DNA of 64,000 bases from Minisyncoccota bacterium (GTDB lineage: Bacteria; Patescibacteriota; Minisyncoccia; Phycocordibacterales; VMEP01). Position 1 is the stretch's first letter, and every line of letters begins with the position of its first letter. The position numbers were made by a program, and so were the translations under genes. The stretch lies in the NCBI GenBank assembly GCA_041659085.1, contig JBAZYZ010000001.1:4884-68883 (forward strand). Direction: 5' to 3'. Below, one piece after another: positions 8,705-12,378 of the stretch. Under the pieces are notes generated by a model. The model saw only the letters and a list, made by a program, of their open reading frames with translations. It was not told where the DNA came from and searched no databases.

Positions 8705-11700
8705 GTTCTACATTTCCTAATGGGAAATGTAAGAGCATACGGTGGATGCCTAGGCTCTAAAAGGCGATGAAAGGCGTGGCGTGACTGCGATAAGCTTCGG
8801 GGAGGTGTCTAGCAACCTTTGATCCGGAGATTTCTGAATGAGGAAACTCAGCCTGCTTTAAGCAGGTTATCCCGTCGCAAGACGGGAAGCATACCCAGGG
8901 AAGTGAAACATCTCAGTACCTGGAGGAAAATAAACTAAACAAGTATTCCCCTAATAGCGGCGAGCGAACGGGGAGAAGCCCAAACCAAAGTCCGCAAGGA
9001 TTTTGGGGTTGTAAGGCAGTGGCGCAAAATTTATTTTGGAAAAGTTAAAAAACGCGGTATTAACCGAATTTGCTGGAAAGCAAAACCCAAGGAGGTAACA
9101 GTCCTGTAGGTGAAAATACTCGCGTCTTTTCTGTCACTGTTCTTGAGTACCTCAAGACACGAATAGCTTGGGGGAATCCGCCGGAACTAACCGGCAAGGC
9201 TAAATACTTTTAGAGACCGATAGTGAACTAGTACCGTGAGGGAAAGGTGAAAAGCAGCCCGGTGAGGGCGGTGAAATAGACCTGAAACCGTATGCTTACA
9301 AGGTGTCAGAGCGGACATCTCACTTTTTTTCTGTGTGATTTTTGCACGGGGGAAAAGTGAGGTGTTCCGTCATGGCGTGCCTATTGAAGAATGAGCCAAC
9401 GAGTTTATGTATGTTGCGTGGCTAAGCCGCAAAGCGGTGGAGCCTTAGGGAAACCGAGTGTTAATAGCGCGTTTGTAGCATGCATAAGACCCGAAGCCAG
9501 ATGAGCTTACCATGAGCAGGGTGAAGTGCTGAGAAATCAGCATGGAGGCCCGAACCGGTTGGTCGTGCAATTCCATCGGATGACTTGTGGTAAGGAGTGA
9601 AAAGCTAATCGAATCTGGTAATAGCTGGTTCTCTCCGAAATAGTTTTAGGACTAGCGTCGAGGTTACCCTCTGGGGGTAGAGCACTGGAAGGACAGAACA
9701 GGGAGAAATCTCGTCTGTCCTATCAAACTCCGAATACCAGAGGCCACTACTCGGCAGTAAGACCATGGGGGCGAAGCTCCATTGGTCAAAAGGGCAACAG
9801 CCCAGATCTCCAGTTAAGGTCCCTAAATTCATGTTCAGTGCAAGTGAGGAGGTGAGATTTCTCCGACAATGAGGATGTTGGCTTAGAAGCAGCCATCATT
9901 TAAAGAAAGCGTAACAGCTCACTCATCAAGAGATCTCGCACCGTAGATAATCGGGGCTTAAACATGATACCGAAACTGAGGGCTTGTGCGTGGCACAGAG
10001 TTTTAAATATTTAGATTATTTAAATTTCTGTGTCACGCAGGAGCGGTAGGAGAGCATTCCATTCTGCTGTGAAGGACAAGGGGTAACCCAATCTGGAGCG
10101 TATGGAAGAGAGAATGTTGGCACAAGTAACCGCAATAGGGGTGAGATCCCCCTACGCCGAAAGACTAAGGTTTCCTTCGCGATGTTGATCAGCGAAGGGT
10201 TAGTCGGGCCTAAGGGGCTGGCGAAAGCCGTACCCGATGGACACATGGTTAATATTCCATGACTTTGTTTGCGTGCGATGGGATGACGGAGTTTAGTATG
10301 AAGATCGTGTTATTGGATTTACGTTCGTGCTGTGAGGTCGTGTTCCAGGCAAATCCGGAGCGCTGTCTTTAATGACAAGTCCAAGCAGAGCGAAAAGCTG
10401 GGGGTCTCCCTCGGCGATTCTTCAAAGCAAGCTTTCAAGAAAACTCTCTAAGCATAACGCAAGCGAAACCGTACCGTAAACCGACACAGGTAGTCAGGTC
10501 GAGAAGACCAAGGCGAACGAGTGATCGTTTCCCAAGGAACTAGGCAAAAAAGCAGCCGTAACTTCGGAATAAGGCTTGCCTCCATCACGTTCCTCGTGAT
10601 GATTAGTTCATAATGTTCGAGCAAAAAAATTACAATGAACGGATTCATCGCGCGTAGCGTGATGGAGGCCGCAGCGAAAGTATCTCAAGCGACTGTTTAT
10701 CAAAAACACAGCTCCCTGCGAACTCGTAAGAGGATGTATAGGGGGTGACACTTGACCAATGCCAGAAGGTCAAATATCGGTGGTCTTTCTCTGCCGCAAG
10801 GCAGGGAAAGGCTGGCTGATATAAGCCCTGGTGAATGTCGGCCGTAACTATAACGGTCCTAAGGTAGCGAAATTCCTTGTCGGGTAAGTTCCGACGCGCA
10901 CGAATAGTGTAACGACTTGAGAACTGTCTCGGGAAATAGCTCGGTGAAAATACAATACCGGTGAAGATGCCGGTTACCTACAGTTAGACGAAAAGACCCC
11001 AGGAGCTTTACTATAGCTTGATATTGAACATATTTTAACACTGCGTAGCATAGATGGGAGACTTTGAAGCGAGGGTTTCGGTTCTCGTGGAGTCAACAGT
11101 GAAATACCATTCTTTTTTGAGGTATGTTCTAACCAACGCGGCAAAAACGCGCTGGGACAGTATCTGGTGGGTAGTTTTACTGGGGCGGTATCCTCCTAAA
11201 GAGTAACGGAGGAGTTTATTAAGGTCAGCTAGGCGCGAATGGAAACCGTGCCGATAGTGTAAGGGCATAAGCTGGCTTGACTGTGAGGCGTGCATGCCGA
11301 GCAGGTGCGAAAGCAGAACCTAGTGAACCGACAACTCGCATTAGATGCGGTTGAAGATTAACGGATAAAAGCTACCCTGGGGATAACAGGCTAGTTCCGC
11401 CTAAGAGTTCATATCGACGGCGGAGTTCGGCACCTCGATGTCGGCCCATCTTATCCTGGTGGTGGAGAAGCTACCAAGGGTTTGGCTGTTCGCCAATTAA
11501 AAAGATACGCGAGCTGGGTTCAAACCGTAGAGCAATTAAGAATTTCTTGATTGTTCTTAGTTTGAGCCCGGGGAGATAAGACTAAACTTATCGAAAAGAC
11601 ATCAATCACGGCGGCCCCGGTTAGAAATAATCGCGGGAGAAGCTGACTAATATCGGGAAAGTCCACCACAAATTTCGTGCGGGATAATTCCGAGGGAAGT

Positions 11701-12378
11701 AAATAATTGTGAATTTCATAGAGGGAGATCAATTCCTCAAAAACTGGACGATGTACGCGCTCAGATGCGCACAAAGCCACCATCAGGAGATGTTCCTGGC
11801 GGGAATAATTGAGAGCGCGAAAACGTTTGCGCATTCATAATGTCTCGCTATACGTCCGCCACCTGTCGGTGGTGCGCCAATAGGCGTACATCGTCCACCA
11901 GAGACCAGGCAATGAAATACGCTTGGTCCTTCTATGAAATTCATAATTAAACACACCCGTAGAGACTAAACGTCAGCACACTTGATTAAAATTAAGTTAA
12001 TGCTATAGTCCGATCCCTTTAGCAATAAAGGTTCACACGGTTTGGAAACCAGAGTGTGATGTAAAACAATAATGCGTGAGACAGGTTGGTTTCCTATCTA
12101 CTGTAGGCGTTGATTATTGAGGAGAGTCGTTCCTAGTACGAGAGGACCGGAATGAATTGACCTCTGGTGTATCGGCTGTCGTGCCAACGGCATTGCCGAG
12201 TAGCTATGTCGAGAATGGATAACCTCTGAAAGCATCTAAGAGGGAAGCCAGCTCCAAGATTAGTAATCGTTTGAGGACCCTAAGAGATGATTAGGTTGAT
12301 AGGCTTTAGATGTACGCACAGTAATGTGTTTAGTCGAGAAGTACTAAGTGTCCGATTCCTGTTAGGAAATGTGCGAAC
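8705..12378 (+). rRNA. rrl: 23S ribosomal RNA (~3.67 kb, contains a ~540-nt insertion/intron and several expansion segments)
   Basis: 5' acggtggatgcctaggc (8745-8761); conserved blocks gtaccgtgagggaaaggtgaaaag, ggataacaggct, 3' ggataacctctgaaagcatctaag at ~12220; ends approximate. Confidence 0.9.
11525..12065 (+). other. putative ORF-less group I intron inserted in 23S at the E. coli ~2590-2600 (I-CreI/I-CeuI-type) site
   Basis: 23S homology breaks after gcgagctgggttcaaa and resumes at atgcgtgagacaggttggtttcctatct; the insert carries P7-like R/S elements (gagataagactaaac ... gctatagtccgatcc); no sense-strand ORF above 60 aa. Confidence 0.6.

What the first reader, a model, noticed from the sequence alone, without database searches (positions are those of the whole stretch)
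11525..12065. ~540-nt group I intron-like insertion in the 23S rRNA at the classic I-CreI/I-CeuI homing-site region, with no intact homing-endonuclease ORF
Conserved 23S sequence stops after 'gcgagctgggttcaaa' and resumes at 'atgcgtgagacaggttggtttcctatct'. These correspond to E. coli GGGTTTAGAACG^TCGTGAGACAGTTCGG, the site of many organellar/bacterial LSU group I introns. The inserted segment contains P7-like 'gagataagACTAAAc' (R) and 'gcTATAGTCc' (S) elements that are hallmarks of group I catalytic cores. No sense-strand ORF above 60 aa is present, so the intron would be ORF-less or degenerate. Such introns are common in CPR rRNAs and explain part of the abnormal 23S length (~3.67 kb).
Basis: partly seen in the sequence, partly recalled or inferred. 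Interest (0 to 1): 0.6.

Follow-up and report, generated by a model that had tools for sequence, protein, structure and literature searches.

The report
ORF-less group I intron in 23S
The 23S rRNA gene is interrupted, at the classic I-CreI site, by a 546-base self-splicing-type group I intron that has no endonuclease gene but carries a long hairpin arm; this kind of intron is already known to be common in CPR bacteria.

Summary
The insertion is real and is a group I intron. It spans 11529..12074 (546 nt), not 11525..12065. It lies between ...GGGUUCAAACCGU and CGUGAGACAGG..., after E. coli U2593, the Cr.LSU/I-CreI site. This is not the I-CeuI site.

The 5' exon ends in U and the intron ends in G. 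An internal guide, UCACG|GCGG (11606-11614), pairs with both exons. About 43 relatives sit at the same site, mostly in Patescibacteria MAGs. Their P10, P2-P6, P8, P9 and the P3/P7 pseudoknot are supported by covariation: 94.7% of cells are paired, against 34-42% in slid controls.

Rfam's Intron_gpI model scores only 29 bits (cut-off 50). The reason is a 265-nt arm in P6 (11694-11958). This arm is a very stable rod (-116 kcal/mol, z about -11). It has no detectable homing-endonuclease remnant and occupies the loop where relatives carry I-CreI/I-MsoI-like LAGLIDADG genes.

The true P7 5' strand is at 11964-11968.

CPR 23S introns at position 2593, with and without ORFs, are already published (Tsurumaki 2024). 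This is therefore a new member of a known kind. Two side points are a two-part 5'-exon recognition and the unexplained P6 rod.

The parts
11519..11528 (+). Last 10 nt of the 5' exon (UUCAAACCGU), ending in U2593 (E. coli numbering). CCGU (11525-11528) is the exon strand of P1. UUCAAA(C) pairs with the intron element at 11561-11566.
11529..12074 (+). The complete group I intron: 546 nt, ORF-less, inserted at L2593.
11529..11557 (+). First hairpin of the intron, starting directly after the splice site (AGAGCAAUUAAGA...UCUUGAUUGUUCU). Together with 11561-11566 and the exon it forms a long 5' stem-loop. This hairpin is present but of variable length in all relatives.
11561..11566 (+). Exon-binding element UUUGAG. 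It pairs with exon nt -10..-5 (11519-11524).
   Evidence: It covaries with exon position -6. UCUGAR is found in 23 of 25 introns whose exon has G at -6, and in only 1 of 18 whose exon has A. Also.
11575..11592 (+). Small hairpin GAUAAG-ACUAAA-CUUAUC in the 5' region. It is not P7.
11606..11614 (+). Internal guide sequence UCACG|GCGG. UCACG pairs with the 3' exon CGUGA (P10). GCGG pairs with the 5' exon CCGU (P1), with G11611 opposite the splice-site U11528 as a G.U wobble.
   Evidence: CACGGCGG is kept in 37 of 43 relatives. All three relatives whose 3' exon reads CGUAAG have UACGGCGG instead. RNAalifold predicts P10 on its own.
11615..11637 (+). P2 hairpin with a GAAA tetraloop (11624-11627), immediately 3' of the guide.
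   Evidence: All 8 pairs have compensatory changes in relatives.
11642..11647 (+). P3 5' strand (GCUGAC). It pairs with 11972-11977.
   Evidence: 6 of 6 pairs have compensatory changes.
11653..11693 (+). P4 (UCGGGA / UUCCGA) enclosing P5 (11661-11685).
11694..11958 (+). P6: base pairs GGG (11694-11696) with CCC (11956-11958), plus a 259-nt branched rod-like arm (11697-11955). The arm includes stems 11704-11726/11927-11949 and 11745-11758/11884-11897.
   Evidence: Folding energy -116 kcal/mol with z = -11.6, and z = -11.0. Inverted repeats. The arm is absent from relative L059. Its basal stem is shared with L127. No endonuclease remnant.
11964..11968 (+). P7 5' strand (GACUA). It pairs with 12006-12010, forming the pseudoknot with P3.
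   Evidence: 5 pairs, 100% paired in 35 sequences. Two relatives show the compensatory change GACUG/CAGUC.
11972..11977 (+). P3 3' strand (GUCAGC). It is followed after 2 nt by P8, so there is no P7.1/P7.2.
11980..11997 (+). P8 hairpin.
   Evidence: 6 of 6 pairs have compensatory changes in the family.
12006..12010 (+).
12016..12059 (+). P9 (12016-12031, GCAA loop) and P9.1 (12033-12059, GAAA loop).
   Evidence: 5 of 6 P9 pairs have compensatory changes. P9.1 is present in a subset of relatives.
12060..12074 (+). 3' tail of the intron, ending in omega-G (G12074).
   Evidence: 47 of 48 introns at this site end in G. Also.
12075..12084 (+). First bases of the 3' exon (CGUGAGACAG). CGUGA pairs with the guide to form P10.

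Best explanation
Window 11529..12074 is an ORF-less group I intron inserted after U2593 of the 23S rRNA, in the peptidyl-transferase region. The host is probably a CPR/Patescibacteria bacterium.

Mechanism, inferred from the anatomy and from the established group I pathway:

1. The guide GCGG (11611-11614) pairs with the exon end CCGU (P1), placing U11528 opposite G11611 as a wobble pair.
2. An external guanosine bound in P7 attacks after U11528.
3. The adjoining guide part UCACG (11606-11610) aligns the 3' exon CGUGA (P10).
4. Omega-G (G12074) replaces the external G, and the exons are joined to give a normal 23S rRNA.

A second intron element, UUUGAG (11561-11566), holds exon bases -10..-5. 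This pairing sits in a long 5' stem-loop that precedes the guide. The 5' exon is therefore probably gripped by two separate guide segments, or handed from one to the other.

The intron has no homing endonuclease, so it cannot start homing by itself. It would spread only vertically or with an enzyme supplied by a related intron.

The 265-nt P6 arm sits in the loop that houses the I-CreI-like gene in relatives. I read it as a non-coding peripheral hairpin extension that does not disturb the core. Its origin is not established.
For: **Site and boundaries.** Exact boundaries come from intron-less alleles. The E. coli position is confirmed. The U / omega-G rule holds in 48/48 and 47/48 introns at this site.

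**Rfam.** A full-length Intron_gpI alignment covers model positions 1-253 at 29 bits, E 2e-5 in a 701-nt search, with a 234-nt insert in P6. The nearest relative that lacks the arm scores 48.8 bits, E 2e-11.

**Core fold.**
- RNAalifold on 24 relatives predicts P10, P2, P3, P4, P5, P6, P8 and P9. Of 47 pairs, 35 show compensatory changes.
- On 35 sequences including the window, with P7 written as a pseudoknot, 94.7% of cells are paired, against 34-42% when partners are slid.
- In the same test, 36 of 51 pairs have double changes and the covariation score is 0.552, against 0.06-0.10 in slid controls. None of 500 shuffles reaches the observed values.

**Guide.** CACGGCGG is conserved, and it changes to UACGGCGG exactly where the 3' exon is CGUAAG.

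**Exon-binding element.** It covaries with exon position -6.

**Endonuclease in relatives.** L026 and L102 carry 172-182-aa LAGLIDADG ORFs in P6. These match I-MsoI and I-CreI at E 1e-35 to 1e-20.

**Window intron and literature.** The window intron has no sense ORF above 43 aa. Published work reports CPR 23S group I introns, with and without ORFs, including position 2593 (PMC11270868).
Against: - The Rfam score is below the curated cut-off (29 against 50 bits), and nothing was reported at the gathering threshold.
- P1 is only 4 bp, and both strands are invariant. P1 itself therefore has no covariation support.
- In minimum-energy folds of the exon plus the 5' region, U-1 pairs with an A of the proximal hairpin in 37 of 43 relatives. 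A competing structure therefore exists, and the choice of the distal guide as the catalytic one is an inference.
- Splicing was not observed, because no RNA data are available.
- The role and origin of the P6 arm are unknown.
Confidence: 0.9

Rival explanations
1. The P6 arm (11697-11955) is the decayed remnant of an I-CreI-like homing-endonuclease gene. On this view the intron is in the 'ORF degeneration' stage of the homing cycle.
For: The arm lies in the loop that carries the LAGLIDADG ORF in relatives L026 and L102. P6 lengths in the family form a series: 17-51, 87-93, 142-167, 226, 265, 323 and 449-451 nt. Tsurumaki 2024 reports degenerate ORFs with large deletions in CPR rRNA insertions. 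A real remnant is detectable in L066 (E 5e-7). One reading frame of the arm contains 'FLAGIIES', a faint echo of LAGFLDGDGS.
Against: No similarity to the four endonucleases was found: tblastn gave E above 0.1, with hits mostly on the wrong strand. A profile HMM over six frames gave no sense-strand hit at E 10 or below, and Pfam gave nothing. There is no nucleotide similarity to the endonuclease genes of L026 or L102. The arm is far more self-complementary (z about -11) than the coding P6 of L026 (z -2.8). 'FLAGIIES' is in a different frame and about 50 nt further from P6 than the motif in relatives.
Confidence: 0.2
2. The P6 arm is a separate selfish or functional element that entered the intron. 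Candidates are a palindromic MITE-like repeat or a second structured RNA, as in twin-ribozyme introns.
For: The arm has long near-perfect inverted repeats (23 nt at 91%, 14 nt at 100%) and folds exceptionally stably. Its distribution is sporadic: it is absent from L059, L123, L125, L126, L130, L131 and L132 of the same clade. Relative L127 also carries long hairpins in L5 and L8.
Against: No second copy exists in the 64-kb window or in about 130 fetched loci. No Rfam family matches the arm even at E up to 10 or the L127 arm at E up to 1. The window and L127 share the basal stem, with one compensatory change, which fits descent within the intron rather than repeated insertion.
Confidence: 0.2
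3. The insertion is not an intron. It would instead be an rRNA expansion segment or an RNase III-excised intervening sequence that stays in, or fragments, the mature 23S rRNA.
For: CPR and other bacteria do carry such sequences. The same 23S gene has short non-intron insertions near E. coli positions 546 and 1180, which are known intervening-sequence sites. The Rfam intron score is below the cut-off.
Against: The insert has a complete, covariation-supported group I core with a P3/P7 pseudoknot, a guide pairing with both exons, a U / omega-G boundary pair, and relatives carrying homing endonucleases. It splits helix 93, next to the peptidyl-transferase centre, where the sequence is otherwise conserved base for base.
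Confidence: 0.03

Closest known systems
Group I introns at 23S position 2593 in CPR/Patescibacteria rRNA genes (site '23IS12' of Tsurumaki et al. 2024, J Bacteriol, PMC11270868; first noted by Brown et al. 2015, which I cite from memory)
   Same: Same host group, same insertion site and group I type. Forms exist with a LAGLIDADG_1 gene and without an ORF, and the sequence outside the ORF is highly similar between them. About 40 such introns were retrieved here and align with the window's.
   Different: The window's copy has one of the longest ORF-less P6 arms seen here: 265 nt, against 17-51 nt in most. The paper attributes intermediate sizes to degenerate ORFs, but no ORF remnant is detectable in this copy.
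Cr.LSU intron of Chlamydomonas reinhardtii chloroplast 23S rRNA (encodes I-CreI) and the cyanobacterial L2593 introns (Haugen et al. 2007, PMC1995217)
   Same: Identical insertion site (L2593). The endonuclease gene, where present in relatives, lies in P6 and belongs to the I-CreI/I-MsoI family. The P4-P6 sequence closely resembles that of the P7.1/P7.2-bearing introns found here, L076 and L066.
   Different: The cyanobacterial L2593 introns have a P7.1/P7.2 extension of about 65 nt and a full endonuclease gene. The window's intron has only 2 nt between P3' and P8 and no ORF. Its guide lies 78 nt into the intron, behind an extra exon-binding stem-loop. I could not align Cr.LSU itself, because its sequence is not in the available collections.
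Rfam RF00028 Intron_gpI
   Same: The alignment spans the whole model, with P3, P4, P5, P6, P8, P9 and the conserved P7 strands in the right order.
   Different: The score is 29 bits against a cut-off of 50. The loss is largely due to the 234-nt insertion in P6, since L059, which lacks the arm, scores 48.8 bits.

Membership tests
Group I intron | Match to the Rfam RF00028 covariance model at or above its gathering score (50 bits) | tested here: not met
   29.0 bits, E 2.1e-5 in a 701-nt search, full model length. Not listed at the gathering threshold. The closest relative without the P6 arm scores 48.8 bits, and L127 scores 31.9 bits.
Group I intron | Conserved core helices P3-P8, including the P3/P7 pseudoknot, supported by covariation | tested here: met
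   In 35 sequences, 94.7% of cells are paired against 34-42% in slid controls. 36 of 51 pairs have double changes, and P7 shows one compensatory change (GACUG/CAGUC). RNAalifold predicts the helices independently.
Group I intron | 5' exon ends in U, which pairs with G of an internal guide (P1); the adjacent guide bases pair with the 3' exon (P10) | tested here: met
   U11528 lies opposite G11611 and CCGU pairs with GCGG. P10 is UCACG/CGUGA, with a C-G to U-A change in three relatives. P1 itself is invariant, so it is supported by complementarity and position only. A competing proximal pairing exists.
Group I intron | Intron ends in G (omega-G) | tested here: met
   G12074. 47 of 48 introns at or next to this site end in G. 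The one ending in A (L089) appears from the sequence to be an intron placed 3 nt downstream whose regex-called boundaries were shifted.
Group I intron | Removal restores a contiguous, conserved host sequence | tested here: met
   The joined exons equal the intron-less allele of L111. They align without a gap to E. coli 23S.
Group I intron | Guanosine-dependent self-splicing | not testable with these tools
   No RNA or biochemical data are available.
L2593 (I-CreI-site) rRNA intron lineage | Insertion immediately after E. coli 23S U2593 | tested here: met
   The position is nt 2592 of a 2903-nt rrl copy, which is 2593 in standard numbering.
L2593 (I-CreI-site) rRNA intron lineage | Single-motif LAGLIDADG (I-CreI family) endonuclease gene in P6 | tested here: not met
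   No ORF above 43 aa on the sense strand and no remnant. The gene is present in relatives L026 and L102, which match I-MsoI/I-CreI.
L2593 (I-CreI-site) rRNA intron lineage | P7.1/P7.2 extension, as described for the cyanobacterial L2593 introns (Haugen 2007) | tested here: not met
   P3' (11972-11977) and P8 (11980-11997) are 2 nt apart. By contrast, L076, L066 and L050 have about 60-90 extra nt there.
RNase III-processed intervening sequence / expansion segment | A simple extended stem-loop at a helix tip (for example helix 25 or 45), without a ribozyme core | tested here: not met
   The insert has a full group I core and lies in helix 93. Candidate intervening sequences do exist elsewhere in the gene.
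Twin-ribozyme intron | A second ribozyme (GIR1 / lariat-capping type) in a peripheral arm | tested here: not met
   No Rfam match in the arm at E up to 10.

The most novel reading that the evidence does not exclude
The CPR lineage of L2593 introns may recognise its 5' exon in two parts. Every member has a proximal stem-loop that pairs with exon bases -10..-5 and covaries with them. In 37 of 43 members this stem-loop also pairs the splice-site U with an A. Every member also has a distal guide (CACGGCGG), 60-245 nt downstream, that offers the canonical G.U pair and P10. If both pairings are functional, the intron uses either a pseudoknotted split guide or a conformational hand-over of the splice site. 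That arrangement is not part of the textbook P1 model. Separately, the long rod-like arms that appear sporadically in L1, L5, L6 and L8 of this clade could be a distinct class of hairpin insertions rather than endonuclease-gene debris.
Probability: 0.2. Interest if true: 0.5.

Novelty: new member of a known kind. Interest (0 to 1): 0.28.

Why it matters
**For annotation.** The result explains most of the abnormal 23S length. The mature rRNA should be normal at the peptidyl-transferase centre, so the gene is not a pseudogene. Long peripheral arms can push real group I introns below Rfam's cut-off, so surveys that rely on the gathering score will under-count them.

**For biology.** This adds one more ORF-less member to a documented CPR intron family. 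The family-level observations made along the way could interest ribozyme specialists but need experiments. These are the split exon recognition, the lack of P7.1/P7.2 at a site otherwise occupied by P7.1/P7.2-bearing introns, and the sporadic rod-like arms.

Tried and rejected
- **Covariance model.** I used MAFFT alignments with RNAalifold and explicit pair counting instead.
- **Genome scan.** The pattern had 17 specified bases, so most of its 120 hits are chance. Only loci with 23S exon flanks were used.
- **Endonuclease remnant in the arm.** tblastn, a profile HMM on six frames and Pfam were all negative.
- **Repeat copies of the arm.** None were found in the window or the loci.
- **Antisense ORF 11520..11834 (104 aa).** Its only Pfam match is sub-threshold (E 0.013), and it is not conserved in L059 or L127. 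I treat it as spurious.
- **Strain variants.** Exact-protein look-ups gave only a 3.9-kb Logan contig that ends before the 23S gene, or nothing.
- **Global alignment to E. coli 23S.** MAFFT misplaced the intron region, so the entries at 11589 and 11862 are artefacts. The site was fixed by motif position instead.
- **Interior of the P6 arms.** The window and L127 interiors show no significant similarity (z -0.4), so no covariation test of the arm was possible.
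Full report
**1. The observation**

Rfam places a bacterial 23S rRNA at 8716..12368, which is 3653 nt for a 2925-position model. In the peptidyl-transferase region the alignment skips 552 nt between ...GAGCUGGGUUCAAACCGU and ACAGGUUGG.

Comparison with other genomes fixes the limits. In 40 of the fetched loci the same two exon motifs are separated by 233-753 nt. In three loci they are contiguous, and one of these (L111) has exactly the window's exon sequence, GAGCTGGGTTCAAACCGT|CGTGAGACAGGTTGGT. 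The insertion is therefore 11529..12074 (546 nt). The bases flanking the two junctions differ, so the boundary cannot slide.

The last exon base aligns to nt 2592 of a 2903-nt E. coli rrl copy. That is U2593 in the standard 2904-nt numbering. This is the insertion site of the Cr.LSU intron and the I-CreI target, which reads CAAAACGU^CGUGAGACAG (own knowledge). Endonucleases carried by relatives at this site match I-MsoI and I-CreI in the PDB, which is consistent.

**2. It is a group I intron**

The local Rfam search gives a full-length Intron_gpI alignment over model positions 1-253, at 11553..12032. It scores only 29 bits (cut-off 50) and contains a 234-nt insertion in P6. Nothing reaches the gathering score.

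Independent support comes from relatives. A scan of species-representative genomes for the P7/P3'/P8/P7' signature returned many 23S loci with an intron at exactly this site, mostly from Patescibacteria/CPR MAGs. The labels include Paceibacterota, Saccharibacteria, Nomurabacteria, Moranbacteria, Kaiserbacteria and Minisyncoccia. All 48 introns follow a U, and 47 end in G.

- RNAalifold on 24 short members predicts P10, P2, P3, P4, P5, P6, P8 and P9. Of 47 pairs, 35 show compensatory changes.
- On a 35-sequence alignment that includes the window, with P7 added as a pseudoknot, 94.7% of cells form standard pairs. The figure is 34-42% when partners are slid by 1-3 columns.
- In the same test, 36 of 51 pairs have changes on both sides. 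The covariation score is 0.552 against 0.06-0.10 in slid controls, and none of 500 shuffles reaches the observed values.
- Every family-invariant column is kept in the window, so the core is intact rather than degenerate.

**3. Anatomy in window coordinates**

| Element | Coordinates | Note |
|---|---|---|
| Guide, P10 part | 11606-11610 | UCACG; pairs with 3' exon 12075-12079 |
| Guide, P1 part | 11611-11614 | GCGG; pairs with 5' exon 11525-11528; G11611.U11528 wobble |
| P2 | 11615-11637 | GAAA loop |
| P3 | 11642-11647 with 11972-11977 | |
| P4 | 11653-11658 with 11688-11693 | |
| P5 | 11661-11685 | |
| P6 | 11694-11958 | includes the long arm |
| P7 | 11964-11968 with 12006-12010 | |
| P8 | 11980-11997 | |
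| P9 | 12016-12031 | GCAA loop |
| P9.1 | 12033-12059 | GAAA loop |
| Omega-G | 12074 | |

The guide assignment rests on three points.
- CACGGCGG is conserved in 37 of 43 relatives.
- It lies directly 5' of P2.
- It changes to UACGGCGG in exactly the three relatives whose 3' exon reads CGUAAG.

The functional P7 strand is the second AGACUAAAC, at 11963. Two copies of this 9-mer in 64 kb is not unusual: 10 of 100 shuffles have two or more.

**4. No endonuclease, but a long P6 arm**

The longest sense ORFs are 43 and 36 aa. In relatives L026 and L102 the P6 loop holds 172-182-aa LAGLIDADG ORFs, read in frame from P4'/P6 ('IIPREV') into P7 ('PVETKR'). L076 and L089 carry related ORFs, and L066 carries a detectable remnant.

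The window's P6 is 265 nt. In most relatives P6 is 17-51 nt. A sporadic series of longer ORF-less arms also exists: 87-93, 142-143, 167, 226 and 323 nt.

| Test of the window's arm | Result |
|---|---|
| Folding | branched rod, -116 kcal/mol, z = -11.6; z = -11.0 |
| Inverted repeats | 23-nt and 14-nt near-perfect repeats |
| Similarity to the endonucleases | none by tblastn, profile HMM or Pfam |
| Nucleotide similarity elsewhere | none in the window or the loci |
| Rfam | no match |

The relative with the most similar 3' half is L127, a metagenome contig with an 871-nt intron. It shares the basal stem of the arm, with one compensatory change (CAU/AUG to CGU/ACG). Its interior is unalignable (z -0.4), and it has further long hairpins in L5 and L8. 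L059 and six other members of the same clade lack the arm.

I conclude that the arm is a non-coding peripheral extension tolerated at L6. Whether it is endonuclease-gene debris reshaped into a hairpin, a palindromic insertion or a stabilising domain cannot be decided here.

**5. A second exon-binding element**

Between the splice site and the guide (78 nt in the window, 61-245 nt in relatives) every member has a stem-loop. Its 3' strand, UYUGAR (UUUGAG at 11561-11566 in the window), pairs with exon bases -10..-5.

The Y tracks the exon. UCUGAR occurs in 23 of 25 introns whose exon has G at -6, and in 1 of 18 whose exon has A.

In minimum-energy folds of this region the splice-site U pairs with an A in 37 of 43 members, with G in 3, and is unpaired in 3, including the window. 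The proximal stem-loop therefore does not offer the canonical wobble pair, whereas the distal guide does.

The two pairings share only exon base -4 and would cross each other. They are either a split, pseudoknotted guide or two successive states. This is inference, and I did not find it described in the papers I read.

**6. Comparison with known systems**

Tsurumaki et al. 2024 surveyed CPR rRNA insertions.
- 45% of the 23S insertions are group I introns.
- 222 of these are ORF-less.
- Position 2593 is one of the LAGLIDADG_1 hot spots.
- ORF-containing and ORF-less forms are highly similar outside the ORF.

The cyanobacterial L2593 introns (Haugen 2007) have P7.1/P7.2 and a full endonuclease gene. 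The window's intron has only 2 nt between P3' and P8. P7.1/P7.2-bearing introns at or next to this site were also recovered here: L076, L066 and L050, plus L089, which appears to sit 3 nt downstream. Their P4-P6 sequence is very close to the CPR type, so the two forms look related.

**7. Verdict**

The finding is correct in substance and ordinary in kind. It is an ORF-less group I intron at L2593 in a probable CPR 23S gene, a new member of a published family. The host assignment rests on the best 23S matches: 89-93% to Patescibacteria MAGs and to an unlabelled 510-kb metagenome contig. It is an inference.

The intron explains 546 of roughly 730 extra bases in the 23S gene. The rest are small insertions near E. 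coli positions 287, 546, 1180, 1501, 1707, 1761 and 1862.

Noticed in passing
window 9000-9055, 9319-9362, 10005-10040, 10360-10376, 10580-10596, 10651-10681, 10783-10795: The 23S gene has further short insertions relative to E. coli: 56, 44, 36, 17, 17, 31 and 13 nt near E. coli positions 287, 546, 1180, 1501, 1707, 1761 and 1862. Those near 546 and 1180 coincide with the classical helix-25 and helix-45 intervening-sequence sites that Tsurumaki 2024 also notes in CPR.
   Followed up: partly
window 8716-12368 (23S), 12474-12762 (three tRNAs), 12858-12963 (5S), 22115-23652 (16S): The rRNA genes are unlinked and in an unusual order. The 23S gene is followed by three tRNA genes and then 5S. The 16S gene lies about 9 kb further downstream on the same strand, after rodA-like, glycosyltransferase and secD-like genes. 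The 16S gene has no insertion (1538 nt).
   Followed up: no
window 11579-11587 and 11963-11971: The 9-mer AGACUAAAC occurs twice in the intron: once as the loop and closing strand of a 5' hairpin, and once as the P7 5' strand plus J7/3. L059 keeps the same duplicate and L127 nearly does (AGACUACAC in both of its copies). It could allow an alternative pairing with the P7 3' strand, or it could be chance (10 of 100 shuffles give two copies).
   Followed up: partly
L127:542-1412 (OFQZ01003494.1): This close relative of the window's intron is 871 nt long. It has long hairpin arms in L1, L5 (about 150 nt), L6 (323 nt) and L8 (about 70 nt) and no ORF above 76 aa. Its P9-P9.1 and 3' end are almost identical to the window's, although the flanking 23S exons are only 82-85% identical. 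This hints at intron transfer or unusually strong constraint.
   Followed up: partly
L076:132-865, L066:7079-7526, L050:5268-5567, L089:2471-3218: A second structural type occupies the same site, or in L089 probably a site 3 nt downstream. This type has a short classical P1 with the guide right after the splice site (for example GCGUUCU in L076) and 60-90 extra nt between P3' and P8, resembling P7.1/P7.2. The hosts are labelled Promethearchaeota, Actinomycetota, Woesearchaeota and Magasanikbacteria.
   Followed up: partly
L045, L058, L078, L102 (genome contigs): MAGs labelled Gammaproteobacteria or Bdellovibrionales carry CPR-type 23S exon sequence together with the CPR-type L2593 intron. These contigs may be mis-binned.
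   Followed up: no
window 11520-11834 (- strand): A 104-aa antisense ORF overlaps the intron's 5' half and part of the P6 arm. Its only Pfam match is sub-threshold (E 0.013), and no comparable ORF exists in L059 or L127. It is probably spurious.
   Followed up: partly
L054:1149-1436 and L028:3102-3446: These two relatives changed P7 from GACUA/UAGUC to GACUG/CAGUC, a compensatory change in the otherwise invariant guanosine-binding helix. L054's proximal hairpin also contains a full continuous guide (GCGGUCUGAA) in addition to the distal CACGGCGG.
   Followed up: no
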